Notes under the pieces: generated by a model
Databases searched by the model: none
What the model was told of the DNA's origin: nothing
The model's input: the letters and a program-made list of their open reading frames with translations, nothing else
In this document: one piece after another, positions 986 through 19,285 of the stretch
How positions within the stretch are numbered: the first letter of the stretch is position 1
Layout of the letters: the number at the start of each line of letters is the position of its first letter
Translations under genes and position numbers: made by a program
Source: Eubacteriales bacterium
GTDB taxonomy: Bacteria; Bacillota; Clostridia; Oscillospirales; CAG-272
Assembly (NCBI GenBank): GCA_034101145.1
Contig: JAXEKG010000007.1
Span: 17,473-81,472 of the forward strand
Reading direction: 5' to 3'
Length of the DNA: 64,000 bases

Positions 986-2209
986 ATGAAAATACTCGTT
1001 ATCAACGCCGGCAGTTCATCTCTTAAATATCAGTTATTTGATATGGACAACGGCAGGGTGATGGCAAAAGGCAATTGCGAAAGAATCGGCATCGACGGCA
1101 TGGTAAGCTACAAGCGTCCCGACGAAAAAGACGTTAAGTTCGAAAAGGAACTGAAAAACCACAGGGCGGCGATAGAGACGGTCCTTTCACTCCTCACCGA
1201 CAAGGAAATCGGAGTTATCGGAAGCGTCGATGAGATAGACGCTGTCGGACACAGGTTTGCCCATGGCGGCGAAATGCTCAAGGAATCCTCGATACTTACA
1301 AAAGACAAGGTAAAGTATCTTGAAAGCATAGTGGAGCTAAATCCACTGCATGGTCCTCCTGCAATAGACGGACTTCGTGCGTGTGAGGAGGTTATGCCTG
1401 ACGTTACTCACGTCGGAGTGTTCGATACCTCCTATTATTCGACGGTGGGAGAGAGAGCATACATATATCCGATACCGTATGAACTGTACGAAAAGTACAA
1501 AATAAGGCGTTACGGATTCCACGGAACGTCGCACAGGTACGTTGCGGCGAGGGCAGCCGAGATGCTCGGAAAAGACAAAAAAGACCTCAAAATCATAACT
1601 TGCCATCTCGGTAACGGCTCGTCGATAACGGCGACTGACGGCGGCAAGGCCGTCGATACCTCCATGGGCTTTACACCACAGGACGGTGTGCCTATGGGAA
1701 CGAGAAGCGGAAGTCTCGACCCGACGGTCGTTACTTATATAATGAAGAAACTTAATATGTCTGCCGATGAGACGGAAAAGATGCTCAACTCATCCTCCGG
1801 GCTTCTCGGAATATCGGGCGTATCAAGCGATTGCAGAAACATATGCGAAGAGGCTGAAAAGGGAAACGTGAGAGCAAAGCTCGCCCTTGACATTCTTGTA
1901 CATAATATAAAGAAGATAATCGGTTCTTACATAGCCGAGATGAACGGCGTTGACGCTCTGGTCTTTACCGCGGGAATCGGTGAAAACGACGTTTCACTTC
2001 GCTCACGCGTATGTGAAAACATGGATTATCTCGGAATAAAAATCAACTCTTATGTAAACGCAAATGCCGAAAGAGGCAAAGACGTTGACATAAGCGCCGA
2101 GGGAGCGCGCGTGAAAACTCTGGTAATACCGACCAACGAGGAATATATGATAGCTCTCGACACTCAAAATCTTGTAAATAAAAATTCTGAAAGGAAGAAG
2201 CAAATATGA
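986..2209 (+). CDS. ackA: Acetate/propionate kinase
   Basis: 'MKILVINAGSSSLKYQL', 'RRYGFHGTSH', 'CHLGNGSS', 'FTAGIGEN', 'IPTNEE'. Confidence 0.97.
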   Translation: MKILVINAGSSSLKYQLFDMDNGRVMAKGNCERIGIDGMVSYKRPDEKDVKFEKELKNHRAAIETVLSLLTDKEIGVIGSVDEIDAVGHRFAHGGEMLKESSILTKDKVKYLESIVELNPLHGPPAIDGLRACEEVMPDVTHVGVFDTSYYSTVGERAYIYPIPYELYEKYKIRRYGFHGTSHRYVAARAAEMLGKDKKDLKIITCHLGNGSSITATDGGKAVDTSMGFTPQDGVPMGTRSGSLDPTVVTYIMKKLNMSADETEKMLNSSSGLLGISGVSSDCRNICEEAEKGNVRAKLALDILVHNIKKIIGSYIAEMNGVDALVFTAGIGENDVSLRSRVCENMDYLGIKINSYVNANAERGKDVDISAEGARVKTLVIPTNEEYMIALDTQNLVNKNSERKKQI

Positions 2210-2958
2210 AATCTCCATTTGAAATCAAAAAAGAAATCTGCGAAGTAGGCCATAAAATCTACGCAAAGGGTTTTGTTGCCGCAAATGACGGTAACATTTC
2301 CGTAAAAGTAAACGACCATGAATTTTACTGCACTCCTACCGGTGTATCCAAGGGTGCGCTCACTCCGGATATGATAATCAAGGTAGACCAGAACGGTAAC
2401 AAGCTCGAAGGAAAACTCAATCCTTCATCCGAAATCAAAATGCACATGAGAGTTTATCGCGAGAGACCCGACGTTAACGCCGTAGTTCACGCTCATCCTC
2501 CCATAGCTACCGCTTTCACGGTTGCGGGAATCGCTCTGGACCAGTACATTCTTCCCGAGGCTGTCCTTACTATCGGAGAAGTTCCCACATGTAAATACGG
2601 AACTCCCTCTACCATGGAGATACCGGATTCACTTGAACCCTATATCCAGAATCACGACGCATTCCTTCTCGAGAACCACGGTGCTCTTACCGTAGGATGC
2701 AACCTTACCAAAGCATTCTTCGTTATGGAAGAGGTTGAATTCAACGCAAAGATATGCAAGTATGCAATGGAACTCGGCGCCGTTCACGAGATACCTAACG
2801 AGCAGCTCAAGAAGCTGATGGAGCTCAGAAAGAAAATGCACATACCCGGACGTCACCCCGGCATCGAGCTTGAAGAAGAAACTCCCTGTAATTGCACAGG
2901 CAACGAGGCACTTATAGCCGAAATAACCAAAAAGGTGCTCGCGCAGCTTGGTAAATGA
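2206..2958 (+). CDS. Class II aldolase (fuculose/rhamnulose-1-phosphate aldolase-like) with C-terminal encapsulation peptide
   Basis: 'DGNIS', 'PSSEIKMH', 'VVHAHP', 'LLENHG'; C-terminal amphipathic helix 'EALIAEITKKVLAQL'. Confidence 0.92.
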   Translation: MKSPFEIKKEICEVGHKIYAKGFVAANDGNISVKVNDHEFYCTPTGVSKGALTPDMIIKVDQNGNKLEGKLNPSSEIKMHMRVYRERPDVNAVVHAHPPIATAFTVAGIALDQYILPEAVLTIGEVPTCKYGTPSTMEIPDSLEPYIQNHDAFLLENHGALTVGCNLTKAFFVMEEVEFNAKICKYAMELGAVHEIPNEQLKKLMELRKKMHIPGRHPGIELEEETPCNCTGNEALIAEITKKVLAQLGK

Positions 2959-3029: not shown

Positions 3030-4514
3030 ATGGCAATTAACTGGACAGAGGCACAGATAGAGGAGGTCGTAGCTTCGGTTATTAAGAACCTCAAGGGTGC
3101 CGACGTTGCGAAAAACAATGTTCAAAATTCCGATAATTGCGGAAAGGCATGGGACGCAACTCAATATTGCGGACGTAAATTCATCGGAATATTCGATAAA
3201 ATGGAAGATGCAATAGACGCCGCGCGCACAGGATATAAGGCAGTACGCGCAATGTCTCTTGCGGAAAGAGAAAAGATAATTACGGCGATAAGAAAGCTCT
3301 GTCGCGAAGAGGCATCCGTTATGGCAGCCCTCGGCGTCGGAGAGACGAAGATGGGACGTGTCGAGCATAAGACCGCAAAGCATATACTCGTTGCAGACAA
3401 GACGCCCGGAACGTCGGATATCGTATCGCAGGTTAAAACGGGTGACGACGGACTCACTCTTACGGAAATGGCTCCGTTCGGAGTTGTCGGAAGCATAACT
3501 CCGAGTACCAATCCTTCTGAAACCGTTATATGCAACAGCATCGGTATGATAGCTGCCGGAAACGGAGTCGTATTCAATCCGCATCCGAATGCGATAGCCA
3601 CCTCCAACTACGCGGTAGACCTCGTTAACCGCGCCAGCGCAATGGCGGGCGGGCCGAAAATCCTCGTTGCATCGGTGGTTAAACCCACTCTCGATACGGC
3701 AAACGTAATGTATAAGCACCCGGATATAAGACTTCTCGTATGTACGGGCGGTCCCGGGGTTGTAAAGAGCGTTCTTTCAAGCGGAAAGAAGGCAATCGGC
3801 GCAGGTGCGGGAAATCCCCCCGTAATTGTCGATGATACCGCCGATATAGCAAAAGCGGCGAAGGATATAATCGACGGTTGTTCCTTTGATAACAACCTCC
3901 CCTGCATTGCGGAAAAAGAGGTATTTGCCTTTTCGAATATAGCCGACGAGCTTATCGCCGGAATGAAGAGACACGGCGCATATCAGATAACCAAGCAGCA
4001 GGCAGACGCACTTGCCGATATAGTTCTCGTTGAGAAAAAAGACCCCAAGACAGGCATAATCAAGAAGATAATCAACCGTGAGTGCGTCGGAAGAGACGCG
4101 GCGGTTCTCCTTGACAAGATAGGTATAAAGGTAGGACCCGAAGTAAGGTGTATCATATGTGAGGCTCCATTCGAGCATCCGTTTGTTCAGACCGAGCTTA
4201 TGATGCCGATACTCCCGATAGTGCGTGTTCCCAACATTGACACCGCCATAGATATGGCTGTTAAGGCAGAACACGGATGCCGCCACACGGCACATATGCA
4301 TTCGAAAAATATCGACAACCTCACGCGTTTTGCAAGAGCCGTTGAGACTACCATATTCGTAAAGAATGCACCGTCGTATGCAGGCATAGGTTTCGGCGGA
4401 GAGGGACACACCACCTTCACGATAGCAGGTCCTACAGGAGAGGGTCTTACCAGTGCCAAGAGCTTTACCAGGCTCCGCAGATGCGTTATGGTAGACAACT
4501 TCCGTATTATCTGA
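3030..4514 (+). CDS. CoA-acylating aldehyde dehydrogenase (PduP/EutE family)
   Basis: 'PSTNP', 'TGGPGVV', 'GAGAGNPP', 'DNNLPCIAEKE', 'TFTIAGPTGEG'; N-terminal peptide 'EAQIEEVVASVIKNL'. Confidence 0.95.
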   Translation: MAINWTEAQIEEVVASVIKNLKGADVAKNNVQNSDNCGKAWDATQYCGRKFIGIFDKMEDAIDAARTGYKAVRAMSLAEREKIITAIRKLCREEASVMAALGVGETKMGRVEHKTAKHILVADKTPGTSDIVSQVKTGDDGLTLTEMAPFGVVGSITPSTNPSETVICNSIGMIAAGNGVVFNPHPNAIATSNYAVDLVNRASAMAGGPKILVASVVKPTLDTANVMYKHPDIRLLVCTGGPGVVKSVLSSGKKAIGAGAGNPPVIVDDTADIAKAAKDIIDGCSFDNNLPCIAEKEVFAFSNIADELIAGMKRHGAYQITKQQADALADIVLVEKKDPKTGIIKKIINRECVGRDAAVLLDKIGIKVGPEVRCIICEAPFEHPFVQTELMMPILPIVRVPNIDTAIDMAVKAEHGCRHTAHMHSKNIDNLTRFARAVETTIFVKNAPSYAGIGFGGEGHTTFTIAGPTGEGLTSAKSFTRLRRCVMVDNFRII

Positions 4515-4553
4515 TTTCAAATGTTTACCGAAAGTATAAAAAAGGAGAAAAAC

Positions 4554-5756
4554 ATGGATATAAATTCAACTCAGGTTGAGAGCATTGTCCGCAGGATTCT
4601 GGGAGAGATGAGTAATTCTGTTTCTTCGACATCGAACGCAGAGATTCCCAAAAAAGGCAAAGTGGCAATGCTCACCGGAACAAGAAAAATCGAAGTAAAA
4701 GAATTCGACATTCCGACTCTTGAAGACAACGACATCCTCGTTAAGGTTGAGGGATGCGGAGTATGCGGAACAGACGTTCATGAGTGGAAGGGCGACCCGT
4801 TCGGAATCGTCCCTGTCACTCTCGGTCATGAAGGCACGGGCGAGATAATCGCTCTCGGAAAAAATATAAAGTGCGATACGGCCGGAAACCCGATAAAGGT
4901 CGGAGATAAGATAGTAACGAGCGTTATCAGCTGCGGAGAGTGTCAGATTTGCAGAAATCATCCCGCAAACACCAATCTATGCGACAAGCAGGGAGTATTC
5001 GGGCTTATACCGCACAATCCCGAACAACCGTTCACGGGTTGGTTCTCTACACATATTCTTATCAGAGGTAAGGGGGCTACGTATTTCGTAGTCAATGACC
5101 TCGACCTTCAGGAGAGAATGCTGCTCGAGCTGTCATGCGTATGCGTACATGCGCTCAAGAGGGCAAATACAACCGGACTTATCAACTTCAATTCGAAGGT
5201 TGTAATTCAGGGGCTTGGGCCTGTCGGACTCGTTATGATAAGCGTACTCAGAGCCGCAGGAATAAATCACATTATCGCAATAGACGGAACGCCCAGACGT
5301 CTTGAAATGGCAAAGAAGCTCGGTGCAAAGACCATAATAAACTTCAAGGAAATACCGACGCTCGAAGAGAGAGTAAAGGTTGTCAAGGGAGTTACCATGG
5401 GCATCGGCGCCGACTTTGCATTCCAGTGCACCGGCGCACCTGCTGCGGCAAAGGATATTTACGAATACATCCGTCGCGGTGGCGGAATGTGCGAGATGGG
5501 ATTTTTCGTAAATAACGGAGAATATACCGTAAACCCCCATTTTGCCATGTGCAACAAGGAAATAAACATTGTAGGCTCGTGGGATTACAGTGCGGATGAT
5601 TATCCGACGACAATGGCGTTTTTACGTCAGGCACGTGAGATGAACATTCCGATAAAGGAGCTTATTACTCACAATTTCCCCCTCGACAAACTCAATGAAG
5701 CTATGGAAGTCAACGTAAAGCAAGAGGGTATTAAAATCTGCTACGTTGCGGAATAA
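4554..5756 (+). CDS. Zn-dependent alcohol dehydrogenase (MDR family) with N-terminal encapsulation peptide
   Basis: 'GVCGTD', 'GHEGTG', 'CGECQIC', 'GLGPVG'; start placed at ATG after AAGGAG RBS. Confidence 0.92.
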   Translation: MDINSTQVESIVRRILGEMSNSVSSTSNAEIPKKGKVAMLTGTRKIEVKEFDIPTLEDNDILVKVEGCGVCGTDVHEWKGDPFGIVPVTLGHEGTGEIIALGKNIKCDTAGNPIKVGDKIVTSVISCGECQICRNHPANTNLCDKQGVFGLIPHNPEQPFTGWFSTHILIRGKGATYFVVNDLDLQERMLLELSCVCVHALKRANTTGLINFNSKVVIQGLGPVGLVMISVLRAAGINHIIAIDGTPRRLEMAKKLGAKTIINFKEIPTLEERVKVVKGVTMGIGADFAFQCTGAPAAAKDIYEYIRRGGGMCEMGFFVNNGEYTVNPHFAMCNKEINIVGSWDYSADDYPTTMAFLRQAREMNIPIKELITHNFPLDKLNEAMEVNVKQEGIKICYVAE

Positions 5757-5765
5757 GGAGACAGA

Positions 5766-6083
5766 ATGGCTCTCGGAATGATAGAGGTTTTCGGCTTTAC
5801 CACATCGATAGTCGTATCTGACAGAATGGCTAAGGCTGCAAACGTTGAGATAGTAGCAATCGACAAAAACAAACCTGCGGCAGGCGACAGTGCCGAGGTG
5901 CCGCTCGTTATGGCGATAAAGGTTGAGGGCGACGCCGCGTCCGTTGAGGCGGCAATCGAAGCAGGTAAAGAGGAAGCAGAAAAGCGCGGACTTTATATCA
6001 CTCACAAGATAATAGCAAGACAGTCGGATGACGTAGAATGGTTCGCTCGTCTGAATGCTCTGGGCCGTGACAAGCTAAGATAA
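5766..6083 (+). CDS. BMC-H shell protein (divergent)
   Basis: 'ALGMIEVFGFTTSIVVSDRMAKAANV', 'EGDAASVEAAIEAG'. Confidence 0.88.
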   Translation: MALGMIEVFGFTTSIVVSDRMAKAANVEIVAIDKNKPAAGDSAEVPLVMAIKVEGDAASVEAAIEAGKEEAEKRGLYITHKIIARQSDDVEWFARLNALGRDKLR

Positions 6084-6164
6084 TAAAGGCGAAAACCAAA
6101 CGGTATTTTACTCAATTATGGATTTTAATTAAAATAATTTATGTAACTTAAGGAGAATAAAACA

Positions 6165-6440
6165 ATGATGGAAGCACTCGGAATGGTAGAAACCAGAGGA
6201 CTTGTAGCTGCAATCGAGGCAGCAGATGCAATGGTAAAGGCGGCAAACGTCGTTCTTATCGGCAGCGAGAAAATCGGTTCCGGACTCGTAAGCGTTATGG
6301 TACGCGGTGACGTCGGAGCGGTAAAAGCAGCAGTAGAGGCAGGCAGCGCAGCTGCTACGGCTCTCGGCGAAGTTATCGCAACTCACGTTATTCCCCGTCC
6401 TCACGCTGACGTTGAGAAGCTCCTCCCCACTATTAAATAA
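6165..6440 (+). CDS. BMC-H shell protein, PduA/EutM type (copy 1)
   Basis: '[27 protein letters not shown]...VIPRPH'. Confidence 0.96.
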
Positions 6441-6533
6441 CTAAATGTCTTGGGGAATTGCGTGAGTGGGGAATATGACAAGCATTTTCCGCACCCGCAA
6501 AACGCTGTAAATCACAAAAAAGGATACAAGTAA

Positions 6534-6806
6534 ATGAATGCAATAGCATTACTTGAAGTTCAGGCTCTCGTTGCCGCTATCACGGGGCTTGACGCTATGC
6601 TCAAAGCGGCAGACGTAAAGCTGATTCACGTTGAGAAACGACTCGGCGGCAGACTCGTTACGGTGGTTGTCCAGGGAGAGGTTTCCGCTGTTGAAGCGGC
6701 GGCACGTGCAGGAGCGGCGGCAGCAGCCGAAGTAGGGAAGGTAAAGCTCTGCGAGGTGATAGCACGCCCTCATCCCGAGGTAATGAAATTTTTAACCACG
6801 GGCTGA
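6534..6806 (+). CDS. BMC-H shell protein
   Basis: 'DAMLKAADV', 'GEVSAVEAA', 'VIARPH'. Confidence 0.92.
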   Translation: MNAIALLEVQALVAAITGLDAMLKAADVKLIHVEKRLGGRLVTVVVQGEVSAVEAAARAGAAAAAEVGKVKLCEVIARPHPEVMKFLTTG

Positions 6807-6899
6807 TTTCGGTTTTCTTGGGGATATAAAATCCCTTGAAAATACATATAAGAAAAATCAAATTATTAAAGTTAACAAAATCTCAGGAGGATTTTAACA

Positions 6900-7172
6900 A
6901 TGGAAGCACTCGGAATGGTAGAAACCAGAGGACTCGTAGCTGCAATTGAAGCAGCAGATGCAATGGTAAAGGCGGCAAACGTCGTTCTTATCGGCAGCGA
7001 GAAAATCGGTTCCGGACTCGTAAGCGTTATGGTACGCGGTGATGTCGGAGCGGTAAAAGCAGCAGTAGAGGCAGGCAGCGCAGCTGCTACGGCTCTCGGC
7101 GAAGTTATCGCAACTCACGTTATTCCCCGTCCTCACGCTGACGTTGAGAAGCTCCTTCCCACTATTAAATAA
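6900..7172 (+). CDS. BMC-H shell protein, PduA/EutM type (copy 2, protein identical to copy 1)
   Basis: Same translation as 6168-6440. Confidence 0.96.
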
Positions 7173-7430: not shown

Positions 7431-8111
7431 ATGGATTATACGAGTGAGCAGGTAGCAAAAGCGGTTGAGGCGGTCCTCTCGCAGATGTACGGAGAATGCA
7501 AAACGGACCGTAAAGACTCAGACGTGCCGGTCGGAATATCAAACAGACATATACATCTGACACATAACGACGTTGAAGTTTTGTTCGGAGAAGGGCACAA
7601 GCTCACACCGAAAAAAGAACTTTCTCAACCCGGACAGTATGCCTGCGAGGAAGTAGTTACCCTGGTGGGACCATCTCTTCATTCTATTGAAAACGTTCGT
7701 GTCCTTGGACCCGAAAGAAGCAAAACACAGGTTGAAATCTCGGTTACAGATTCATATACTCTCAAGGTAAAGCCCCCTGTAAGGGAATCGGGAAACATTG
7801 CCGGCTCTGCCGGAATAACGATTGTCGGTCCGTGCGGAGTTATCCGTATATCGGAGGGATGTATAATAGCAAACAGGCACATACATATGTCACCGAGCGA
7901 TGCGAGAAGCTTCGGTGTGAACGACGGCGACATCGTGGCTGTCGACGTTATCGGCGAGGGCAACGTGAAGAGGACCAGATGGTACGGAGTAAAGGTGAGA
8001 GTAAATCCCGACTTCCGTCTTGAAATGCACGTTGATACCGATGACGCAAACGCCGTCGGAATCAAAAACGGATTCAGGGTGAAATTGATAAAGGAGAACG
8101 AGAATGCTTAA
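7431..8111 (+). CDS. pduL: Phosphate propanoyltransferase PduL
   Basis: 'GISNRHIHL', 'LSQPGQYA', 'RVLGP', 'RHIHM', 'EMHVDTDDANA'; start may be 7416. Confidence 0.94.
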   Translation: MDYTSEQVAKAVEAVLSQMYGECKTDRKDSDVPVGISNRHIHLTHNDVEVLFGEGHKLTPKKELSQPGQYACEEVVTLVGPSLHSIENVRVLGPERSKTQVEISVTDSYTLKVKPPVRESGNIAGSAGITIVGPCGVIRISEGCIIANRHIHMSPSDARSFGVNDGDIVAVDVIGEGNVKRTRWYGVKVRVNPDFRLEMHVDTDDANAVGIKNGFRVKLIKENENA

Positions 8112-8352
8112 AGGAAAAATCATAGGAAACGTTGTTTCCACAAGAAAGCAGGAATCTCTTGTCGGAAGCAAGTTTATGGAAGTTCAGATTATCGAAAACG
8201 GTAAGCTCACGGATAAATTTATAATAGCGATAGACAGCGTAGGCGCAGGTATAGGCGAAACCGTGCTCATAACCGTGGGAAGCCCGGCAAGACTCGCTCT
8301 GCATAATCAGAGTGCACCGGCAGATGCGGTTATCGTAGGTATTGTTGACTGA
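8104..8352 (+). CDS. BMC-P vertex protein (EutN/CcmL family)
   Basis: 'GNVVSTRK', 'AIDSVGAGIGETVL', 'DAVIVGIVD'. Confidence 0.95.
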   Translation: MLKGKIIGNVVSTRKQESLVGSKFMEVQIIENGKLTDKFIIAIDSVGAGIGETVLITVGSPARLALHNQSAPADAVIVGIVD

Positions 8353-8437: not shown

Positions 8438-9748
8438 ATGGAACTTAAAGAGATAATGAAAGATGCGGGCATCGTCGGTGCCGGAGGAGCAGGATTTCCG
8501 TCTTATGCAAAGCTTGCAGAGGGAGCTGATACGCTCGTAATAAACGGAGCCGAATGCGAACCTCTTCTTTATATAGATTACATAATACTCAGAGATGAGC
8601 TCTCATACGTTCTGCGCGGTATCGGAGCGGTACTTGAATATGCTAAAATAGGCAGAGCACTTCTTTGCGTTAAACAGCATACCGCCGAGAGGCTCGGATA
8701 TGAGGACGGGCAGCTTTTAGCCGATAGAATTTGTGTAAAGATTCTTCCTAACGTTTATCCTATGGGTGATGAAATAAGCCTGATATATCAGGCAACGGGC
8801 AGGGTCGTGCGTGCAGGAAATCTGCCGATAACTGCAGGCGTCATAGTTTATAACGTAGAGACTATGTACAACGTGGCAAAAGCCATAGACGGTGAGAAGC
8901 TCACGATGAAGTGGCTGATGATTGGCGGAGACGTCAAAAAGCCAATAACGATGAGGGTGCCGATAGGAACGAGGATATCCGACCTTTTTAAGAAGTACGG
9001 TGTTTCGGTTAAAGACGGCGAGAGCGTGCTTGACGGAGGCCCGGCAATGGGACGGCTGATAAATCCCGCAACCGCGGTAGTCACAAAGACGACAAAGAGC
9101 ATACTTATTCTCCCGGACAATATACCTGCGATAGAAACGAAAAAGATGGATTATTCAAAGGCAACCGCGAGGGCGGAGACGGCATGCTGTCAGTGTACCA
9201 GATGTACCGATATGTGTCCCAGAGCCCTGCTCGGTTATCCTCTTGAACCGCACAAAATGGTGCGTACCGCAAAGAGTGCGGCAGAGGTTATGCCGGAGAT
9301 GGTAAAGACCGCTACCCTGTGTTGCGGATGCGGTATTTGCGAGACTATCGCATGTTGCCAGGACATATCTCCGAAGGCGGTTATAGCCAACTATAAATTA
9401 TTGCTTGCAAAGAACAAAATGAGATATTCAACAACGGAAGAGAGCGTTGTATCGGACGAGCGTGAATACAGAATGGTACAGTCCGAAAAATGGGAAAGTG
9501 TCCTGGGAGTTGCGAAATTCGATAAGGTAGCCGAATATATAGGCGAGGACAGAGATTTTTCCCAACTTGAGATGAAACTATCGCAGCACATAGGTGCGCC
9601 GTCCGTTGCGGTTGTATCGGCAGGGGACAGTGTAAAAGAGGGCGACATGATAGCACGTGCATCCGACGGTCTCTCCCTCCCACTATATGCGCCGATGGAC
9701 GCAAAGGTAATGGCGGTTGATGACAAGACGATAGTACTTTCAAAATAA
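8438..9748 (+). CDS. PduS/RnfC-like Fe-S flavoprotein
   Basis: 'GIVGAGGAGFP', 'NGAECEP', 'GGPAMG', two Cys clusters, 'QHIGAP'. Confidence 0.9.
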   Translation: MELKEIMKDAGIVGAGGAGFPSYAKLAEGADTLVINGAECEPLLYIDYIILRDELSYVLRGIGAVLEYAKIGRALLCVKQHTAERLGYEDGQLLADRICVKILPNVYPMGDEISLIYQATGRVVRAGNLPITAGVIVYNVETMYNVAKAIDGEKLTMKWLMIGGDVKKPITMRVPIGTRISDLFKKYGVSVKDGESVLDGGPAMGRLINPATAVVTKTTKSILILPDNIPAIETKKMDYSKATARAETACCQCTRCTDMCPRALLGYPLEPHKMVRTAKSAAEVMPEMVKTATLCCGCGICETIACCQDISPKAVIANYKLLLAKNKMRYSTTEESVVSDEREYRMVQSEKWESVLGVAKFDKVAEYIGEDRDFSQLEMKLSQHIGAPSVAVVSAGDSVKEGDMIARASDGLSLPLYAPMDAKVMAVDDKTIVLSK

Positions 9749-9872: not shown

Positions 9873-10418
9873 ATGTTTAGTGCAGTAGGAATAATAGAAC
9901 TCAAAAGCATAGCAAAGGGTGTTGAGGCTACCGATGCCGCCCTCAAAAGCGCAGGTGTACGTATGGTATCGGCACATCCGGCATGCCCCGGAAAATACGA
10001 AATAATAATAGAGGGCTCGATATCGAACGTCACTTCGTCAATCGAGCACGTCAAGGGCAGATTTGAGCACTACATAATCGACTCGTCGATAATGGGAAGA
10101 ATAGACGAAAACGTTATTAAGGCGCTTTTCGGAACGGAAACAACCGCAAAAAAAGGTTCGCTCGGAATTATTGAAACGTTCTCGGCGGCGAGTGCGATAA
10201 AGGCTGCCGATATCGCCGTTAAGACCTCACGCGTCGAAATATACGATATGCGTGTATCGAGAGGTATGGGAGGCAAGGGTATAGTATTTCTTACGGGAGA
10301 GGTAGGGGACGTTACCGCTGCCGTTGAAGCCGGCGCAAATTATGCAAAGAGAGAGGCGATGCTCTCATCTTATTCTGTTATCGCAGCACCTCACGAAGAG
10401 CTTTGGGAACAGTTGTAA
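9873..10418 (+). CDS. BMC-T shell protein, PduT-like
   Basis: Tandem BMC domains; 'CPGKY' motif. Confidence 0.92.
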   Translation: MFSAVGIIELKSIAKGVEATDAALKSAGVRMVSAHPACPGKYEIIIEGSISNVTSSIEHVKGRFEHYIIDSSIMGRIDENVIKALFGTETTAKKGSLGIIETFSAASAIKAADIAVKTSRVEIYDMRVSRGMGGKGIVFLTGEVGDVTAAVEAGANYAKREAMLSSYSVIAAPHEELWEQL

Positions 10419-10486
10419 TATACGTTATTGCGTATTGTATTTTGATTTTTCACCTTAAGATATTTTAATTCTATTTGGAGATGAAT

Positions 10487-13018
10487 ATGGAAAACATAAA
10501 GTTCGTTTTGGAAAAGAGCGACAGAATAAATCGGCTCATAGACAATCTCTACGCGAAGATGCCGGAGATAGAATCGGCACGCGCGCTTCTTGTAACGGAG
10601 AGCTATAAGGCTACTGAAGATTTGCCTATAATAAAAAGGCGTTCGGCAGCTTTTGCCCATATACTTGAAAATATTCCGATAACAATAAGGGATGAGGAGC
10701 TTATAGTCGGAAGCGCAACAATAGCACCGAGGGGTTGTCAGGCATTCCCCGAGTATTCGTACGAGTGGCTTCAAGCCGAGTTCGATACGGTTGCCACCCG
10801 TGAGGCGGACCCGTTCTATATAAGCGAAAAAACAAAATCGGAGCTGCTCGGTGCGTTCGCATATTGGCGAGGCAAAACCGTAAGCGACCTCGCAAAATCC
10901 AATATGGCGCCCGAGGCATACTCTGCTTTTACGGAGCACGGAATGTTCACTCCCGGCAACTATTTCTACAACGGAATCGGACACGTAAACGTAAACTACG
11001 CAAAGGTTATAAATAAAGGTTATCGCGGAATCATAGCGGAGGCGGAGGATGCTCTCGAAAAATGCGACGTATCCGACCCCGATTACACAAGGAAGAACAA
11101 TTTCCTTTGCGCTGTAATAGAGAGTTGCGAGGCTGCGATAAATTATGCGCGCCGTTATTCAGCACTCGCAAAGAAAATGGCGAGAGAGGAAAAGGACGAG
11201 AGGCGTCGCTCGGAGCTTGAAAGAATAGCACGCAACTGCGCAAGGGTACCTGAGTTTCCCGCAAACGATTTTTGGGAGGCATGTCAGTCGTTCTGGTTCG
11301 TTCAGTTGCTCCTTCAGATTGAGTCGAGCGGTCATTCGATATCTCCCGGAAGATTCGACAGATATATGTACCCCCTATACAAAAAGGATATTGATAAGGG
11401 GCAAATAACCTGTGAAGAGGCACAGGAACTTATTGATTGCATTTGGGTTAAACTCAACGATATAAACAAGGTACGCGATGCGGCATCCGCAGATGGATTT
11501 GCAGGTTACGGAATGTTCCAGAATCTCATCGTCGGCGGACAGGATGAAGATGGAGTCGATACGACAAACGATTTGTCGTATATGTGTATTGAAGCGGCCA
11601 TGCACGTACCGCTTCCTCAGCCTTCACTCTCAATAAGAGTATGGAACGGGACCCCGGATGATTTGATGATAAAGGCGGCCGCACTCACAAGAATAGGAAC
11701 GGGACTGCCTGCTTATTATAACGACGAGGTTATAATACCCTCCATTATGGAGAGGGGGTTGTCACTTGCAGACGCAAGAGACTATTGCATTATCGGTTGC
11801 GTTGAACCGCAAAAGGGCTCGAAAACCGACGGCTGGCACGATGCGGCATTCTTCAATATGTGCCGTCCTATGGAGCTCGTATTCTCAAACGGTTACGATA
11901 AGGGAGAAAAGATTGGTCCCGACACGGGTGACGTGTGCGAGATGAAGAGCTTTGAGGAGTTTTACGAAGCATATAAAGCGCAGCAGTCATATATGATAAA
12001 GCTGCTCATAAATGCTGATAATGCAATAGATGCGGCACATGCCACAAGATGTCCCCTTCCGTTTGAGTCCTGCATGGTTGATGACTGTATAGGACGTGGA
12101 CTATCCCTTCAGGAGGGCGGCGCAATATACAACTTCACAGGTCCGCAGGGCTTCGGAATTGCCAACAATACCGACGGACTTATTGCAGTTAAAAAACTCG
12201 TTTTCGATGAGAAAAAAATCACGATGAGCGAGTTGAAGGAAGCAATGAACAACAACTTCGGATACGGTTATACCGGAAAGGCCGCGGAGAATATAACATC
12301 GGAAATAGCAAAGAAAATTGCAGACGCGGGAGTTGTTGTAAATGAGAAAATCGTCCGTGAAATATATGACGAGGTAACCTCTGCAAAGTCCCTCGATGCA
12401 GACAAGAAGGCAAGATACAGAGAAATCAAGAGAATGATTGACGAGGATTGCCCAAAATACGGAAACGATATTTACGATGTCGACATGTTCGCTCGTGACG
12501 TTGCAAATACCTATACTAAAGAAGTTGAGAAGTACAAGAACGTACGCGGAGGAAAATTCCAGGCGGGACTCTATCCCGTATCCGCAAACGTTCCTCTCGG
12601 CGCACAGACCGGGGCAACTCCCGACGGACGTCTCGCGTATACTCCGATAGCCGACGGCATAGGCCCTATGTCGGGAAGAGACGTCAAGGGTCCGACCGCT
12701 ACCGCAAATTCGGTATCAAAGCTCGAACAGAACGTTGCGTCAAACGGAACTCTGCTCAATCAGAAGTTCCACCCCTCGGCACTTGCCGGTATGTCGGGTC
12801 TTATAAAGTTTGCTGCTCTTATACGCTCCTACTTCGACAAAAAAGGTATGCATATGCAGTTTAACGTCGTAACGAAGGAGACGCTTCTCGATGCACAGAA
12901 GAATCCCGAGAAGTACAAGACGCTCGTTGTCAGGGTTGCCGGATACAGTGCGCTCTTCACCACGCTTTCACGTTCGCTTCAGAACGATATTATAAACAGG
13001 ACGCAGCAGGGCTGGTAA
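10487..13018 (+). CDS. Glycyl radical enzyme, B12-independent 1,2-propanediol dehydratase-like
   Basis: 'YFYNGIGHV', 'IIGCVEP', glycyl loop 'VRVAGYSA', internal encapsulation-peptide insert; BMC context. Start could be 10481. Confidence 0.88.
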   Translation: MENIKFVLEKSDRINRLIDNLYAKMPEIESARALLVTESYKATEDLPIIKRRSAAFAHILENIPITIRDEELIVGSATIAPRGCQAFPEYSYEWLQAEFDTVATREADPFYISEKTKSELLGAFAYWRGKTVSDLAKSNMAPEAYSAFTEHGMFTPGNYFYNGIGHVNVNYAKVINKGYRGIIAEAEDALEKCDVSDPDYTRKNNFLCAVIESCEAAINYARRYSALAKKMAREEKDERRRSELERIARNCARVPEFPANDFWEACQSFWFVQLLLQIESSGHSISPGRFDRYMYPLYKKDIDKGQITCEEAQELIDCIWVKLNDINKVRDAASADGFAGYGMFQNLIVGGQDEDGVDTTNDLSYMCIEAAMHVPLPQPSLSIRVWNGTPDDLMIKAAALTRIGTGLPAYYNDEVIIPSIMERGLSLADARDYCIIGCVEPQKGSKTDGWHDAAFFNMCRPMELVFSNGYDKGEKIGPDTGDVCEMKSFEEFYEAYKAQQSYMIKLLINADNAIDAAHATRCPLPFESCMVDDCIGRGLSLQEGGAIYNFTGPQGFGIANNTDGLIAVKKLVFDEKKITMSELKEAMNNNFGYGYTGKAAENITSEIAKKIADAGVVVNEKIVREIYDEVTSAKSLDADKKARYREIKRMIDEDCPKYGNDIYDVDMFARDVANTYTKEVEKYKNVRGGKFQAGLYPVSANVPLGAQTGATPDGRLAYTPIADGIGPMSGRDVKGPTATANSVSKLEQNVASNGTLLNQKFHPSALAGMSGLIKFAALIRSYFDKKGMHMQFNVVTKETLLDAQKNPEKYKTLVVRVAGYSALFTTLSRSLQNDIINRTQQGW

Positions 13019-13046
13019 TCCCCATAATAAAAAAATAGGTAAATAT

Positions 13047-13832
13047 ATGAACGATATATACGATAGCCGTGGAAGAATTTTCAATATTCAGCGCTTCTCC
13101 GTTCATGACGGTCCCGGCATACGCACTATTGTGTTTTTTAAGGGTTGCGTCCTTCGTTGCCGTTGGTGCTGTAATCCCGAATCGCAGTCATTCGAGATTC
13201 AACAGATGACCGAGGCCGGCAAGGTAAAAACCGTCGGTTATGACGTGAGCGTGCGTGACATTATGCCCGAGATACTGTCGGATATGACGTACTACCGTCG
13301 CAGCGGAGGCGGAATAACGCTGTCGGGAGGAGAAATACTCTGTCAGTACAAATTCGCACGGGATTTGCTCGCGGCATGCAAGGAAAACGGACTTCATACC
13401 GCGGTGGAGTCAACGGCTTATGCGCCGTACGAGAAGATAGAAGCGATTCTGCCTTATCTTGATTTGTTCCTTATGGATATTAAGCATATGGACTCACAAA
13501 AGCATAAGGAATATACGGGAGTCGATAATTCTCTCATACTTGAAAATGCAAAGCGGCTCGGGGCGAGCGAGGTAAATCTCATCGTCCGCACACCGGTAAT
13601 CCCCGGCTTCAATGATGCGAAAGAGGATATAGAGAAAATCGCAAGGTATGCGGCATCCGTCGGAGCTGACGAATATCATCTGCTCCCGTATCACCGTCTG
13701 GGCCGTGACAAATACGACGGACTTTCACGTGAATATACTCTGGACGGTATTATGCCGCCGGAAAAAGAGAAGATGGAATATCTTTTATCGGTTGCGGAAG
13801 TGTGCGGAATTAAATGTCAAGTAGGCGGATGA
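13047..13832 (+). CDS. Glycyl-radical activating enzyme (radical SAM), short form
   Basis: 'HDGPGIRT', 'KGCVLRCRWCCNPES', 'GGGITLSGGE'. Confidence 0.95.
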   Translation: MNDIYDSRGRIFNIQRFSVHDGPGIRTIVFFKGCVLRCRWCCNPESQSFEIQQMTEAGKVKTVGYDVSVRDIMPEILSDMTYYRRSGGGITLSGGEILCQYKFARDLLAACKENGLHTAVESTAYAPYEKIEAILPYLDLFLMDIKHMDSQKHKEYTGVDNSLILENAKRLGASEVNLIVRTPVIPGFNDAKEDIEKIARYAASVGADEYHLLPYHRLGRDKYDGLSREYTLDGIMPPEKEKMEYLLSVAEVCGIKCQVGG

Positions 13833-13932
13833 CTTCCGTGCCATAACGGAAGGTTCAGTGAGCGGTCAAAAGCCGGGTAGGCGGATGACCTCCGTGCCAT
13901 AACGGAAGGTTCAGTGAGCAGTCAAAAGCCGG
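13821..13932 (+). repeat. Tandem 2 x 56-bp repeat with internal hairpin
   Basis: gtaggcggatgac(t/c)tccgtgccataacggaaggttcagtgagc(g/a)gtcaaaagccgg at 13821 and 13877. Confidence 0.95.
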
Positions 13933-14008
13933 GCAGGCGTGCGGATGCAATCGCTGTAACAGAAGATAAAAATGATGAACAGTATAAATGTAAAAACGGA
14001 GGATAACC

Positions 14009-14368
14009 ATGGAGCTCAAGGATAAAATGAGAATAGTGCAGGAGCTGGTACCGGGTAAGCAGGTAACTCTTTGCCATATTATTGCCAATCCGGACGACGT
14101 GCTCTTTACAAAGCTCGGTCTCGACCCGAAAACCGATTATACACGCAGTGCGATAGGGGTGCTTACGATAAGCCCTGCCGAGAGTGCGGTAATAGCCGCA
14201 GATATTGCAATCAAGTCGTCGGGGGCAGATATAGGATTCGTCGACAGATTCACCGGTACCCTTATAATTTCGGGCAGCGTTTCGAGCGTGGAATCTGCGT
14301 TCACCGCCATTCGTGAGTACGTTATGAACAAGCTCGGCTATACCTGTTGCGACATAACGAGAACATAA
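14009..14368 (+). CDS. Circularly permuted BMC shell protein PduU/EutS
   Basis: 'RIVQELVPGKQVTLCHIIANP', 'IGFVDRFTG', C-terminal 'ITRT'. Confidence 0.93.
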   Translation: MELKDKMRIVQELVPGKQVTLCHIIANPDDVLFTKLGLDPKTDYTRSAIGVLTISPAESAVIAADIAIKSSGADIGFVDRFTGTLIISGSVSSVESAFTAIREYVMNKLGYTCCDITRT

Positions 14369-14381
14369 AAAGCGGACATCA

Positions 14382-14813
14382 ATGAAAAAGATAATTTTGA
14401 TCGGGCGTGTTGCGGCAGGAAAAACAACTCTGACGCAGGCGCTCCGCGGAGAAGAAATACATTATTTCAAGACTCAGTACGTGAATTACCTCGATACTAT
14501 AATAGATACTCCCGGTGAATATACCGAGCTTCGGCAGACGAGCGGTGCGCTCGCCTTATATTCGTATGAGGCCGACGTAGTCGGGCTTGTCCTGAGTGCA
14601 AATGAGCCTTATTCGATTTTTTCACCGAATATCACAAGCCTCGTCAATCGTGAGGTTATAGGAATAGTATCCGGAATTGATAAGCCGGACGCCAACGTGG
14701 AGAGAGTGTCGCGATGGTTAAAGCTGGCAGGATGCAAGAAGATTTTTCCCGTGAGTGCCGTGACGGGCGAGGGGCTTGACGCTATCATAGAATATCTTGA
14801 AAAGGATGACTGA
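14382..14813 (+). CDS. PduV/EutP family small GTPase
   Basis: 'IGRVAAGKTTLTQAL', 'KTQ', 'IDTPGEY'. Confidence 0.93.
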   Translation: MKKIILIGRVAAGKTTLTQALRGEEIHYFKTQYVNYLDTIIDTPGEYTELRQTSGALALYSYEADVVGLVLSANEPYSIFSPNITSLVNREVIGIVSGIDKPDANVERVSRWLKLAGCKKIFPVSAVTGEGLDAIIEYLEKDD

Positions 14814-14814
14814 T

Positions 14815-15606
14815 ATGAGTAAAACAACTGTAATCGCATTTGCAAACAATAAGGGTGGCAGCGGAAAAACCACGACGTGCTCTAACGTAGGCTGTGCGAT
14901 GGCGCTTTCAGGTAAGAGGGTTCTGCTTATCGACGGTGATATGCAGATGAATCTGACACTTTCATTTTTCGATGAGGATAAGGCACTTGAACTTGCGAAA
15001 AACGGTAAGAATCTCTACACGGCAGTTAAAGAGGAAAAGGACCTTTCGGACTACGTAATACCGACGGGATACGTCGGACTCGACCTGATTCCATCCTCCT
15101 CTCTCATGAGCTCGATAGAGTTTGACCTGTTTACAAAGTGGCAGAGAGAAATAATATTAAAAAAGTGCCTCGAACCCATAAGGGCTAAGGGATATTATGA
15201 TTACATACTGATAGATTCTCCTCCAACGCTCGGGGGGTGGGTTATGAACATTATGTGCGCCTCGGACTTTGTGGTCATACCCGTTGAGGCATCGCCGTGG
15301 GGTCTGTTCGGGCTTGCCAATATGTTTGAGTTCTGCGAGAGCGTAAAGATGATTGCGCCCAAACTCTCCATACTGGGAATAGCAATAACGAAGGCAGATG
15401 AGCGTAAGAATTATTTTAAGCAAACCCTCGACACCCTGCGTGAAACTGATGCGGCAAGACTCTTTGATACATACGTCCGCGTGGACAGCGCAGTTGAATG
15501 GGCTCAGGATAACAGCAAGCCCGTAGTAGCTTACAAGAAAAACAGCCGAAGTGCGGTTGAATATACAGAACTTGCAAAGGAGATAATGAAATATGCCCGT
15601 AGGTAA
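14815..15606 (+). CDS. ParA/MinD-family ATPase (McdA-like candidate)
   Basis: Deviant Walker A 'NKGGSGKTT', 'VLLIDGDMQMNLT', 'YDYILIDSPP'. Confidence 0.93.
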   Translation: MSKTTVIAFANNKGGSGKTTTCSNVGCAMALSGKRVLLIDGDMQMNLTLSFFDEDKALELAKNGKNLYTAVKEEKDLSDYVIPTGYVGLDLIPSSSLMSSIEFDLFTKWQREIILKKCLEPIRAKGYYDYILIDSPPTLGGWVMNIMCASDFVVIPVEASPWGLFGLANMFEFCESVKMIAPKLSILGIAITKADERKNYFKQTLDTLRETDAARLFDTYVRVDSAVEWAQDNSKPVVAYKKNSRSAVEYTELAKEIMKYARR

Positions 15607-15856
15607 GAATTCAATCAGACGAGTTGCAAACAACGGATATTCGAAAGTTAAGACGGAAGCCCCCGATATGGAAAACAGTAAAATTGTGACTATTAAGAAA
15701 AGCACGACGGTTAAGAACGCTTCAACGAAAAAAGATAACGCAGTCTCGGATAACGTTAACTTAGTTAAGGCAAAAGGGATTTTGACGCCGGTAGATACTA
15801 AAACAGAAAAGAGTTTTGTAAACGTCGGAGACGATATGCCGTACTACCTTCTGTAA
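15593..15856 (+). CDS. Small basic low-complexity protein, putative ParA partner (McdB-like)
   Basis: AGGAG RBS, 14-nt overlap with parA; basic N-terminus, K/T/N-rich middle, C-terminal 'DDMPYYLL'. Confidence 0.75.
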   Translation: MPVGKNSIRRVANNGYSKVKTEAPDMENSKIVTIKKSTTVKNASTKKDNAVSDNVNLVKAKGILTPVDTKTEKSFVNVGDDMPYYLL

Positions 15857-15912: not shown

Positions 15913-15941
15913 TTGACTTTACGTAAGTGTTATGTTAGAAT
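15913..15941 (+). promoter_or_regulatory. Sigma-A promoter
   Basis: TTGACT-17-TAGAAT with extended TG. Confidence 0.6.
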
Positions 15942-15971
15942 AGCGGTGTAAAAACACCGCTTTTTATTTTT
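15942..15971 (+). terminator. Intrinsic terminator (probably ends the BMC operon)
   Basis: agcggtgt-aaaa-acaccgct followed by T-rich run. Confidence 0.7.
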
Positions 15972-16012
15972 ATTGTCTATGATTCCGACGAAAAAAGATG
16001 CGAGGAAAAATT

Positions 16013-19276: not shown

Positions 19277-19285
19277 ATATAACAT

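What the first reader, a model, noticed from the sequence alone, without database searches (positions are those of the whole stretch)
14382..15856. McdAB-like ParA + small partner at the end of a catabolic (GRM5) microcompartment operon: candidate organelle-positioning system
Seen: pduU-pduV is followed after a 1-nt gap by a ParA-family ATPase with the signature deviant Walker A (KGGSGKT). An 87-aa ORF overlaps it by 14 nt, then a terminator follows. The partner has a basic N-terminus (KNSIRR), a K/T/N-rich low-complexity middle and an aromatic C-terminus (MPYYLL). It has no ParB/HTH features. Established: McdA (ParA-type) and McdB (small, disordered, basic N-terminus, C-terminal aromatic residue) space carboxysomes over the nucleoid. 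Inference: this pair distributes a glycyl-radical BMC. Similar pairs near catabolic BMC loci have been proposed bioinformatically, but I know of no functional test for a Clostridial GRM5.
Basis: partly seen in the sequence, partly recalled or inferred. Interest (0 to 1): 0.85.

Follow-up and report, generated by a model that had tools for sequence, protein, structure and literature searches.

The report
Candidate positioning system for catabolic microcompartments
A ParA-type ATPase and a small, disordered partner protein end a fucose/rhamnose-type microcompartment operon and occur almost only in genomes that have such compartments, so they probably distribute these protein organelles in the cell; this idea is already in print but has never been tested.

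Summary
pduU-pduV is followed after 1 nt by a 263-aa ParA ATPase (14815-15606, KGGSGKT). An 87-aa ORF (15593-15856) overlaps it by 14 nt, and a terminator follows. The locus is a GRM5-like microcompartment operon.

The partner matches no Pfam or NCBIfam model and is predicted to be disordered. It has two conserved ends: a basic N-terminal peptide and a C-terminal [DE]-[LM]-P-x-aromatic-L-L motif.

ParA orthologues (58-82% identical, clearly separate from Soj at 34-38%) occur in four Clostridia families. Of 44 genomes with an orthologue, 42 have shell genes; the other two are 62-76% complete. No orthologue was found in shell-negative genomes: 0 of 122, 0 of 261 and 0 of 83 in three samples. In one family all 14 carriers also have the orthologous diol-dehydratase GRE. 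The pair lies next to the compartment genes in at least three different arrangements and is unlinked elsewhere.

This supports a McdAB-like role, but nothing shows function. ParA is Soj-like rather than McdA-like, and only 1 of 4 canonical DNA-contact positions is basic. Many GRM genomes lack the pair. One lineage's partner carries a ParB_N domain.

McdAB-like pairs near GRM/PDU loci with a C-terminal tyrosine are already published, so this is a new member of a known, untested kind.

The parts
89..928 (+). RpiR-family regulator (HTH_6 + SIS) at the head of the locus
   Evidence: Pfam
986..2209 (+). acetate/propionate kinase
   Evidence: NCBIfam TIGR00016, 2e-143
2206..2958 (+). class II aldolase (fuculose/rhamnulose-phosphate type), the GRM5 marker enzyme
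   Evidence: Pfam PF00596, 5.2e-49; NCBIfam
3030..4514 (+). acylating aldehyde dehydrogenase (PduP-like)
   Evidence: NCBIfam NF011927, 1.2e-202
4521..5756 (+). zinc-type alcohol dehydrogenase
   Evidence: NCBIfam hits, all below the curated cut-offs
5766..7172 (+). four BMC-H shell genes (5766-6083, 6165-6440, 6534-6806, 6900-7172)
   Evidence: Pfam PF00936
7416..8111 (+). phosphotransacylase PduL
   Evidence: NCBIfam NF011652, 2.9e-76
8104..8352 (+). BMC-P vertex protein (EutN/CcmL)
   Evidence: Pfam PF03319, 1.9e-27
8438..9748 (+). PduS-like flavoprotein/Fe-S oxidoreductase
   Evidence: Pfam Complex1_51K, RnfC_N and Fer4_17
9873..10418 (+). BMC-T tandem-domain shell protein
   Evidence: Pfam PF00936, two stretches
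10475..13018 (+). glycyl radical enzyme of the diol-dehydratase type
   Evidence: Pfam PFL-like and Gly_radical; best solved relative is 5I2A diol dehydratase, 1213.8 bits over residues 12-845
13047..13832 (+). glycyl-radical activating enzyme (radical SAM)
   Evidence: Pfam
14009..14368 (+). PduU/EutS-type shell protein
   Evidence: Pfam BMC; NCBIfam NF012012, 4.2e-30 (below the cut-off)
14382..14813 (+). PduV/EutP small GTPase-like protein
   Evidence: Pfam PF10662, 3.5e-52; TIGR02528 above the cut-off
14815..15606 (+). ParA/Soj-like ATPase, 263 aa, with a deviant Walker A that includes the signature lysine
   Evidence: AF2 model has pLDDT 85.3. Foldseek top hits are Soj/ParA with TM 0.81-0.86.
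15593..15856 (+). 87-aa partner: basic N-terminal peptide plus a conserved block (residues 1-29), a K/T/N-rich disordered linker, and a C-terminal G-x-D-M-P-Y-Y-L-L motif
   Evidence: AF2 gives pLDDT 59.9, pTM 0.13 and no secondary structure apart from a turn at 84-86.
15942..15971 (+). intrinsic-terminator-like hairpin and T run that close the operon

Best explanation
The two genes encode a cognate ParA-type ATPase and adaptor that serve the GRM5-like (fucose/rhamnose to 1,2-propanediol) microcompartment encoded by the same operon. They most likely space these organelles and hand them on at division, in the manner of McdA/McdB with carboxysomes.

Proposed mechanism, all of it inferred: ATP-bound ParA dimers sit on a cellular matrix, presumably the nucleoid. 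The partner's N-terminal peptide (M-[PSA]-[IV]-G-K-x-[SA]-[IL]-x-R) binds ParA and stimulates its ATPase, as the N-terminal peptide of ParB does. The long basic, disordered linker connects this peptide to the C-terminal [DE]-[LM]-P-x-[Y/F/W/H]-L-[LM] motif, which docks on the shell. The resulting ParA depletion zones keep compartments apart.

Shown here: gene structure, conservation, synteny, and co-occurrence with shell and GRE genes. Inferred: every binding step and the cellular role.

The pair is analogous to McdAB and is not a sequence relative of it. ParA is Soj-like. The adaptor looks ParB-derived, because in one family it still carries a ParB_N domain.
For: 1. Operon structure. There is a 1-nt gap after pduV, a 14-nt overlap between ParA and the partner, a strong Shine-Dalgarno sequence, and a single terminator after the partner.

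2. Synteny in the window's lineage. Of 80 related loci from species genomes, 78 have ParA directly upstream of the partner; the other 2 are cut by a contig end. 75 have pduV before ParA, and no locus with at least 1.5 kb of upstream DNA lacks it. All 55 loci with at least 6 kb upstream have the GRE. In the same genus, 11 of 12 loci show the same order.

3. A distinct orthogroup. Orthologues are 58-82% identical. The next-best hits, the Soj type, are 34-38% identical, with nothing in between.

4. Co-occurrence with shell genes.
- Family sample: 17 of 150 genomes have the orthologue, and all 17 are among the 28 with shell genes.
- Class sample: 4 of 398, all among the 137 with shell genes.
- Family f44 (121 genera): 14 carriers, all among the 38 with shell genes and all among the 25 with a GRE at least 62% identical. 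None of the 13 other shell-positive genomes and none of the 83 shell-negative genomes has it.
- Family f83: 12 of 12 have ParA and 10 of 12 have shell genes.

5. At least three different linked arrangements. The pair lies after pduV in the window's type (for L131/L132). It lies 1-2 kb after the last shell gene in G646 and G657, and 2.5 kb upstream of the GRE in G706.

6. The genomes with an unlinked pair that I examined (G419, G385, G516) carry GRM5-like loci elsewhere.

7. The own genome has a separate Soj with a full-length ParB next to it, and only one shell-gene locus.

8. Partner architecture. The N-terminal and C-terminal motifs are conserved across all variants while the linker is not. 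Among 78 unique sequences the linker is 25% K, 21% A and 11% P with 0.07% aromatic residues, and the median net charge is +7. The protein is predicted to be disordered. An aromatic residue or histidine sits at position -3 in 79 of 79, and D or E at -7 in 72 of 79. This matches the published description of McdB-like proteins near PDU and GRM loci: Y or F in the last five residues with acidic residues nearby (passages read).

9. The partner is the only ORF of at least 50 aa in the whole genome that ends with this motif (1 of 7851).
Against: - No functional or binding data exist. I found none in print for any catabolic compartment.
- ParA is closer to Soj/ParA than to McdA. By sequence, 8RAY scores 6.8e-30 and HpSoj 6e-28, against 2.5e-16 for McdA 6NOO. 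In Foldseek, McdA ranks 16th.
- The partner has no detectable sequence relation to any named family. It lacks the tryptophan that is invariant in carboxysomal McdB (passages).
- The four HpSoj lysines that contact DNA are K199, K227, K230 and K247. In the alignment they fall on K202, S225, E228 and N243. S225 and E228 are invariant in the orthogroup. Nucleoid binding through the canonical patch is therefore doubtful, although K193, R197, K198, R222, K241, K242 and R245 are conserved nearby.
- The pair is dispensable for this type of compartment. In f44, 11 of 25 GRE-positive genomes lack it. In the window's family, 11 of 28 shell-positive genomes lack it. Seven of these show pduV followed directly by the aldolase gene.
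- In f44 only 4 of 14 pairs lie within about 12 kb of shell genes. In f83 ParA and the shell genes are on different contigs in all 10.
- The f83 partner carries a ParB_N domain, which leaves a DNA-related role open.
- The co-occurrence counts are not corrected for shared ancestry. They could reflect joint transfer or a shared niche.
- pduV, itself once proposed as a positioning factor (passages), is also present.
Confidence: 0.55

Rival explanations
1. The pair works on the microcompartment but not as a nucleoid-gradient spacing system. For example, it could tether compartments to a pole, the membrane or each other, control their number or assembly, or cooperate with PduV. In this reading ParA uses a matrix other than DNA.
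For: The co-occurrence and synteny evidence is the same as for the best explanation. Only 1 of 4 canonical DNA-contact positions is basic, and two are an invariant Ser and Glu. In the window's lineage the pair always follows pduU-pduV. That lineage's partner carries an extra invariant block (residues 10-29) that is absent from the variants of other genera. This suggests a further, lineage-specific contact.
Against: The fold is Soj-like throughout. No C-terminal amphipathic membrane helix follows the last ParA helix, which spans 245-261 of 263 residues. Conserved basic residues remain around the canonical DNA patch. All characterised ParA-type organelle systems in the papers read here use the nucleoid.
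Confidence: 0.2
2. The pair is a DNA-partition module derived from Soj/ParB. It would serve the chromosome, an integrated element or the locus itself, and merely travels with GRM islands.
For: ParA is most similar to chromosomal Soj/ParA. The f83 partners carry a ParB_N domain. Pfam was run on one of them (1.7e-11). It aligns to the own genome's ParB at 1e-09, and 9 sequences share the domain in alignment A4. Most f44 pairs and all f83 pairs are not next to shell genes.
Against: The window's partner has no HTH, RHH or any other fold and is predicted to be disordered. No centromere-like repeat array lies near the pair. The genome has its own Soj-ParB pair. The flanking genes of unlinked copies differ, being sugar-utilisation or housekeeping genes rather than mobile-element genes. 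The orthogroup was not found in any shell-negative genome of the three samples (0 of 122, 0 of 261, 0 of 83).
Confidence: 0.1
3. The partner's C-terminal motif is a mimic of the FtsZ C-terminal peptide (D-I-P-x-F-L type, recalled from memory). It would link the ParA to the division machinery and not to the shell.
For: The only support is the resemblance of [DE]-[LM]-P-x-[YF]-L-L to the canonical FtsZ tail motif, which I recall and which comes from no call.
Against: The own genome's FtsZ ends in an acidic stretch followed by a hydrophobic peptide without the P-x-F-L core. This idea does not explain why the pair is restricted to GRM-bearing genomes.
Confidence: 0.04

Closest known systems
McdA/McdB carboxysome positioning systems, especially the alpha type of Halothiobacillus neapolitanus
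   Same: A ParA-family ATPase with the signature lysine is followed by a small, highly disordered, basic adaptor gene. The adaptor has a charged N-terminus and a C-terminal aromatic residue with an acidic neighbour. The pair is encoded in or near the compartment operon, and is sometimes unlinked (passages).
   Different: There is no sequence relation to McdB, and no tryptophan at the C-terminus in most members: W at -3 in 4 of 79, Y in 71. ParA is nearer to Soj than to McdA. The cargo would be a catabolic glycyl-radical compartment in an anaerobic Gram-positive bacterium. Function is untested.
Published 'McdAB-like' pairs near PDU and GRM loci (MacCready et al. 2021, section 2.9; Basalla et al. 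2024, Figure 4 legend and text)
   Same: These are described as McdA-like and McdB-like genes within or beside non-carboxysome operons. The McdB-like proteins have tyrosine or phenylalanine within the last four or five residues and acidic residues nearby. This fits the present family exactly.
   Different: The organisms and sequences are given only in figures and supplements that I could not see. A text search of Basalla 2024 for clostridial names found nothing. Whether the published GRM example is this same family is therefore unknown. The conserved N- and C-terminal motifs, the genome-level co-occurrence and the ParB_N variant are not in the passages I read.
Chromosomal Soj/ParA with Spo0J/ParB (ParABS)
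   Same: This is the best sequence and fold match for the ATPase. [quoted passage not shown] The own ParB begins with a comparable L-G-K-G-I stretch. The principle of the motif comes from passages of PMC12462528. The f83 partner keeps a ParB_N domain.
   Different: The window's partner has no ParB_N, HTH or dimerisation domain. No parS-like repeats were seen. The genome has a separate canonical pair. The canonical DNA-contact residues of helix 9 are replaced.
PduV/EutP
   Same: It is encoded in the same operon, directly upstream. It was proposed in the literature to act in positioning of PDU compartments (passages).
   Different: It is an unrelated small GTPase-like fold, and it is present in many GRM, PDU and EUT loci that lack the ParA pair.

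Membership tests
ParA/MinD (deviant Walker A) ATPases | P-loop fold with K-G-G-x-G-K-[ST], including the signature lysine, plus Walker A' and Walker B aspartates | tested here: met
   Pfam AAA_31 at 4.2e-51. K13, K18, D40, D42 and D134 are invariant in 74 of 74 sequences. The AF2 model matches Soj/ParA structures with TM 0.81-0.86.
McdA (carboxysome-positioning ATPase) | Closest relatives are McdA proteins | tested here: not met
   McdA structures (6NON, 6NOO) score 2.3e-16 to 2.5e-16, against 6.8e-30 to 6e-28 for ParA/Soj. In Foldseek, McdA ranks 16th.
McdA (carboxysome-positioning ATPase) | ATP-dependent non-specific DNA (nucleoid) binding | tested here: inconclusive
   Only 1 of 4 HpSoj DNA-contact lysine positions is basic (K202). 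The others are S225, E228 and N243. Other conserved basic residues lie nearby. No binding assay is possible with these tools.
McdB (adaptor) | Small protein encoded directly after the ATPase gene, with a charged N-terminus | tested here: met
   14-nt overlap with ParA. K5 is present in 78 of 79 and R10 in 79 of 79 sequences.
McdB (adaptor) | Intrinsic disorder and low complexity | tested here: met
   AF2 gives pLDDT 59.9 and pTM 0.13 with no helices or strands. The Atlas model has pLDDT 0.25.
McdB (adaptor) | Invariant C-terminal tryptophan (carboxysomal McdB) | tested here: not met
   The window's protein has no tryptophan. At position -3 the family has Y in 71, W in 4, F in 2 and H in 2 of 79. 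The published McdB-like proteins of GRM and PDU loci also have Y or F instead.
McdB (adaptor) | Binds the shell, stimulates the ATPase and forms condensates | not testable with these tools
   These need bench assays. The one complex prediction gave no verdict (see Tried and rejected).
GRM5 microcompartment locus | Glycyl radical diol dehydratase with its activase, a class II aldolase, PduS, shell proteins, and the aldehyde dehydrogenase / alcohol dehydrogenase / phosphotransacylase core | tested here: met
   The definition comes from passages of Axen 2014 and Sutter 2021. The regulator here is RpiR-type, not DeoR-type, so I call the locus 'GRM5-like'.
ParB (partition adaptor) | ParB_N (CTPase) domain, HTH DNA-binding domain and C-terminal dimerisation domain | tested here: not met
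   The window's partner has no Pfam or NCBIfam match. Only the f83 variant has ParB_N, and without an HTH match.

The most novel reading that the evidence does not exclude
The pair belongs to a previously undefined, ParB-derived adaptor family that arose independently of carboxysomal McdB. Its members combine an N-terminal ParA-activating peptide with a universal C-terminal [DE]-[LM]-P-x-aromatic-L-L shell-docking motif. The family positions GRM5 metabolosomes in at least four families of gut Clostridia. The f83 form, which keeps a ParB_N domain but no DNA-binding domain, would be an evolutionary intermediate or a nucleotide-switched adaptor. The loss of the canonical DNA-contact residues in ParA would point to an altered way of using the matrix.
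Probability: 0.35. Interest if true: 0.75.

Novelty: new member of a known kind. Interest (0 to 1): 0.5.

Why it matters
How catabolic microcompartments are placed and inherited is an open question. The reviews I read state that, apart from one PduV study, it is unknown. In Salmonella, neither ParA, MinD nor a transplanted McdAB affects Pdu compartments.

This work gives that question a concrete handle: a sharply defined orthogroup with two short motifs that can be mutated. The orthogroup occurs in many gut Clostridia, including a large family with genomes of 2-7 Mb (f44) that may hold cultivable members.

If the C-terminal motif docks on shells, it would also be a portable tag for engineering the spatial control of synthetic compartments.

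Tried and rejected
Complex prediction. I submitted a ParA dimer with 2 ATP and 2 Mg plus the full-length partner, using my own alignments A2 and A3. The score was 0.00 and 0.01 in two runs against a mark of 0.32, so the verdict is 'no answer'. This is no evidence either way. A hexamer plus peptide would also exceed the chain limit.

FtsZ-tail mimicry. The own FtsZ lacks the P-x-F-L core. I kept this idea only as a weak rival.

Centromere-like repeats. None lie near the pair. The only notable repeat is a 56-nt tandem between the activase gene and pduU.

C-terminal motif as a remnant of the ParB HTH. BLASTP placed the last 10 residues of an f83 partner on the L-D-L-P-E-D-L-L stretch of the own ParB. 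However, the linker between ParB_N and the motif varies by about 60 residues among f83 partners, so I regard this as chance.

Profile searches of genomes with the partner were insensitive. One search found nothing in 3 genomes whose variant partners I could read directly. One search hit 5 of 17 carriers and missed G004, whose partner searches had shown. I therefore counted partners by reading the DNA after ParA.

Dropped rows. Weak ParA hits at 35-38% identity were dropped as Soj-like before the orthologue counts: G090, G108, G110 and G151, and G411 and G473. Two genomes (G293, G553) were not scored.

Searches that added nothing. The Atlas and Rfam gave nothing for the pair. NCBIfam gave only sub-threshold ParA-family hits.

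Limits of the literature check. Figures (Fig. 8f of MacCready 2021, Fig. 4A of Basalla 2024) and all supplements were not visible, and they may name this very family. All papers were read only as search listings and 'find' passages.
Full report
**What is in the window**

Positions 89-15856 hold one co-directional gene string. In order it encodes:
- an RpiR regulator, an acetate/propionate kinase and a class II aldolase;
- an acylating aldehyde dehydrogenase and a zinc alcohol dehydrogenase;
- four BMC-H genes, PduL, BMC-P, a PduS-like protein and BMC-T;
- a glycyl radical enzyme and its activase;
- a PduU/EutS-type shell protein and PduV;
- a ParA-family ATPase and an 87-aa ORF.

The GRE's best solved relative is the diol dehydratase 5I2A, at 1213.8 bits over residues 12-845. 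Together with the aldolase, this matches the published description of GRM5, the fucose/rhamnose compartment (passages).

ParA starts at the ATG at 14815, one base after the pduV stop. The partner's ATG at 15593 lies 14 nt inside ParA, behind an AAGGAG. The only terminator-like site after pduV's stop follows the partner, at 15942-15961. One correction: the finding's start coordinate is that of pduV.

**The two proteins**

ParA (263 aa) has the deviant Walker A with the signature lysine. Its AF2 model (pLDDT 85.3) superposes best on Soj/ParA structures, with TM 0.81-0.86. McdA appears at rank 16. By sequence, too, ParA/Soj (6.8e-30, 6e-28) come before McdA (2.5e-16).

The partner matches no Pfam or NCBIfam model. 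It is predicted to be disordered (pLDDT 59.9, pTM 0.13; Atlas pLDDT 0.25). It is nevertheless a real gene. One search found 36 homologues, one search found 98 relatives in species genomes, and one search found 304 clusters among 1.84 billion representatives.

In 79 full-length relatives the first 29 residues are almost invariant: M-P-[IV]-G-K-N-[AS]-I-[KR]-R-V-x-N-N-G-Y-S-x-V-K-T-x-A-P-D-M-E-N-S. The last nine residues read G-x-[DE]-[ML]-P-Y-Y-L-L. The middle varies from about 25 to over 100 residues and is 25% K, 21% A and 11% P with virtually no aromatic residues.

**Synteny in the window's own lineage**

In all related loci with enough DNA, the order ...GRE - activase - pduU - pduV - parA - partner is kept.
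- Of 80 loci, 78 have ParA, and the other 2 are cut by a contig end.
- 75 have pduV, and no locus with at least 1.5 kb upstream lacks it.
- All 55 loci with at least 6 kb upstream have the GRE.
- In the same genus, 11 of 12 loci agree.

This is largely one inherited arrangement, so it shows retention under selection. It is not independent evidence of a functional link.

**Looking wider**

Searching genomes with ParA shows a sharply bounded orthogroup. Orthologues are 58-82% identical. The next hits are Soj-type at 34-38%. The own genome has exactly one of each, and its Soj sits next to a full-length ParB.

Orthologues occur in four families of the class:
- the window's family, in 17 of 150 sampled genomes;
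- f85 (G581, same gene order);
- f44, in 14 of 121 genera;
- f83, in 12 of 12 genomes.

The same samples were searched for the BMC shell domain.
- Window's family: 28 of 150 genomes have shell genes, and all 17 carriers are among them.
- Class sample: 137 of 398 have shell genes, and all 4 carriers are among them.
- f44: 38 of 121 have shell genes, and all 14 carriers are among them.
- f83: 10 of 12 have shell genes. The two without are 62% and 76% complete.

In f44 all 14 carriers are also among the 25 genomes with a GRE at least 62% identical to the window's. None of the 13 other shell-positive genomes has the ParA. Simple hypergeometric values are very small. They ignore shared ancestry and should be read only as 'not a sampling accident'.

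**Position relative to the compartment genes**

- Window's family: 16 of 17 carriers have ParA within 10 kb of shell genes on the same contig. The 17th is on a 2.9-kb contig (coordinates).
- f44: the pair lies 1-2 kb after the last shell gene in G646 and G657, 2.5 kb upstream of the GRE in G706, and about 7 kb from shell genes in G652. Elsewhere it is 20-80 kb away or on another contig.
- f83: the pair is always on another contig.
- The unlinked cases I examined (G419, G385, G516) have GRM5-like loci elsewhere. Their ParA neighbours are ordinary sugar-utilisation or housekeeping genes.

By genome content it is not. Carboxysomal mcdAB genes can likewise be unlinked (passage).

**Partner variants**

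Reading the DNA after each ParA orthologue shows a partner in:
- 17 of 17 carriers in the window's family;
- 10 of 11 examined in f44 (three were not fetched);
- 10 of 12 in f83.

Only two features are shared by all of them. One is an N-terminal M-[PSA]-[IV]-G-K-x-[SA]-[IL]-x-R peptide. The other is a C-terminal [DE]-[LM]-P-x-[Y/F/W/H]-L-[LM].

The long invariant block of residues 10-29 is confined to the window's genus and its close relatives. Other genera of the same family lack it.

In f83 the partner is 164-375 aa long and holds a ParB_N domain between the two motifs. Pfam was run on one sequence (1.7e-11). BLASTP against the own ParB gave 1e-09, and nine sequences align across the domain. 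No HTH was detected. This suggests that the adaptor descends from ParB and that its N-terminal peptide is the counterpart of ParB's ParA-binding motif (principle from passages). That descent is an inference.

**How it most likely works**

The bipartite, disordered adaptor next to a ParA, restricted to genomes with one type of compartment, fits the McdAB scheme best. ParA-ATP dimers would sit on a matrix. The adaptor's N-terminal peptide would stimulate hydrolysis, and its C-terminal acidic-aromatic motif would hold the shell. The published description of McdB-like proteins near GRM and PDU loci, with Y or F in the last four or five residues and acidic residues nearby, fits this family closely.

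None of these steps is shown. Four results count against a simple copy of McdAB:
- ParA is Soj-like, not McdA-like.
- Of the four HpSoj lysines that contact DNA, only one position is basic here. Two are an invariant Ser and Glu.
- Many genomes with the same compartment type lack the pair: 11 of 25 in f44, and 11 of 28 shell-positive genomes in the window's family. Seven of the latter show pduV followed directly by the aldolase gene.
- The ParB_N variant keeps a DNA-related reading alive.

I put the positioning reading at 0.55, another compartment-related role at 0.2, a DNA-partition module at 0.1 and a divisome link at 0.04. The remainder is unassigned.

**Novelty**

ParA as an ancillary family in BMC loci was noted in 2014. 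McdAB-like pairs near four non-carboxysome types, GRM and PDU among them, were reported in 2021 and 2024 and repeated in reviews. My three searches found no functional test of any of them. One study found that ParA, MinD and a transplanted McdAB do not affect Salmonella Pdu compartments.

I could not see the figures or supplements that name the published examples. I therefore file this as a new member of a known, proposed kind.

What may be new here:
- the definition of the orthogroup and its two motifs;
- the genome-level restriction to GRM-bearing Clostridia, including unlinked copies;
- the departure from the canonical DNA-binding patch;
- the ParB_N-bearing variant.

The complex prediction gave no verdict and is reported only under Tried and rejected.

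Noticed in passing
window 13812-13923: A 56-nt tandem direct repeat (2 copies, 89% identical) lies in the 176-nt spacer between the GRE-activase gene and pduU. Each copy contains a short hairpin (TTCCGT...ACGGAA). Rfam has no match there.
   Followed up: partly
window 6165-6440 and 6900-7172: Two BMC-H paralogues are identical in protein sequence apart from one extra N-terminal residue. The reverse-strand spurious ORFs are near-duplicates too, so this is a recent duplication within the shell-gene block.
   Followed up: no
L116, L117, L119, L120, L121, L125, L127 (genomes G045, G060, G067, G104, G105, G183, G188): The same taxonomic family holds a second GRM5-like gene order: GRE - activase - pduU - pduV - aldolase - ADH - shell genes - PduS - BMC-T - kinase - PduP - PduL. 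The GRE is 62-67% identical, and there is no ParA pair. Two further genomes (G061, G150) have another compartment type with three BMC-P genes.
   Followed up: partly
L130 10768-11280 and relatives L138-L146: In family f83 the partner of the orthologous ParA is a 164-375-aa protein with a ParB_N domain but no detectable HTH, flanked by the same N- and C-terminal motifs. In two genomes of that family (G385, G589) no partner gene follows ParA.
   Followed up: partly
L128 8392-9609 (genome G419): Directly downstream of an unlinked ParA-partner pair lies an iron-type alcohol dehydrogenase with a basic N-terminal extension of about 25 residues. It could be a satellite compartment enzyme.
   Followed up: no
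own genome C1:50742 (+), outside the window: The genome's FtsZ (379 aa) ends in an acidic run followed by a hydrophobic peptide that lacks the usual proline-containing tail motif. That motif is recalled from memory.
   Followed up: no
window 15998-18247: A 749-aa FAD-dependent oxidoreductase (PF12831, 2.9e-82) starts after the operon terminator. It is preceded by its own promoter-like site (15913-15941) and is not part of the compartment operon.
   Followed up: no
window 19188-19360 and 60070-60140: Three tRNA genes (Rfam).
   Followed up: no
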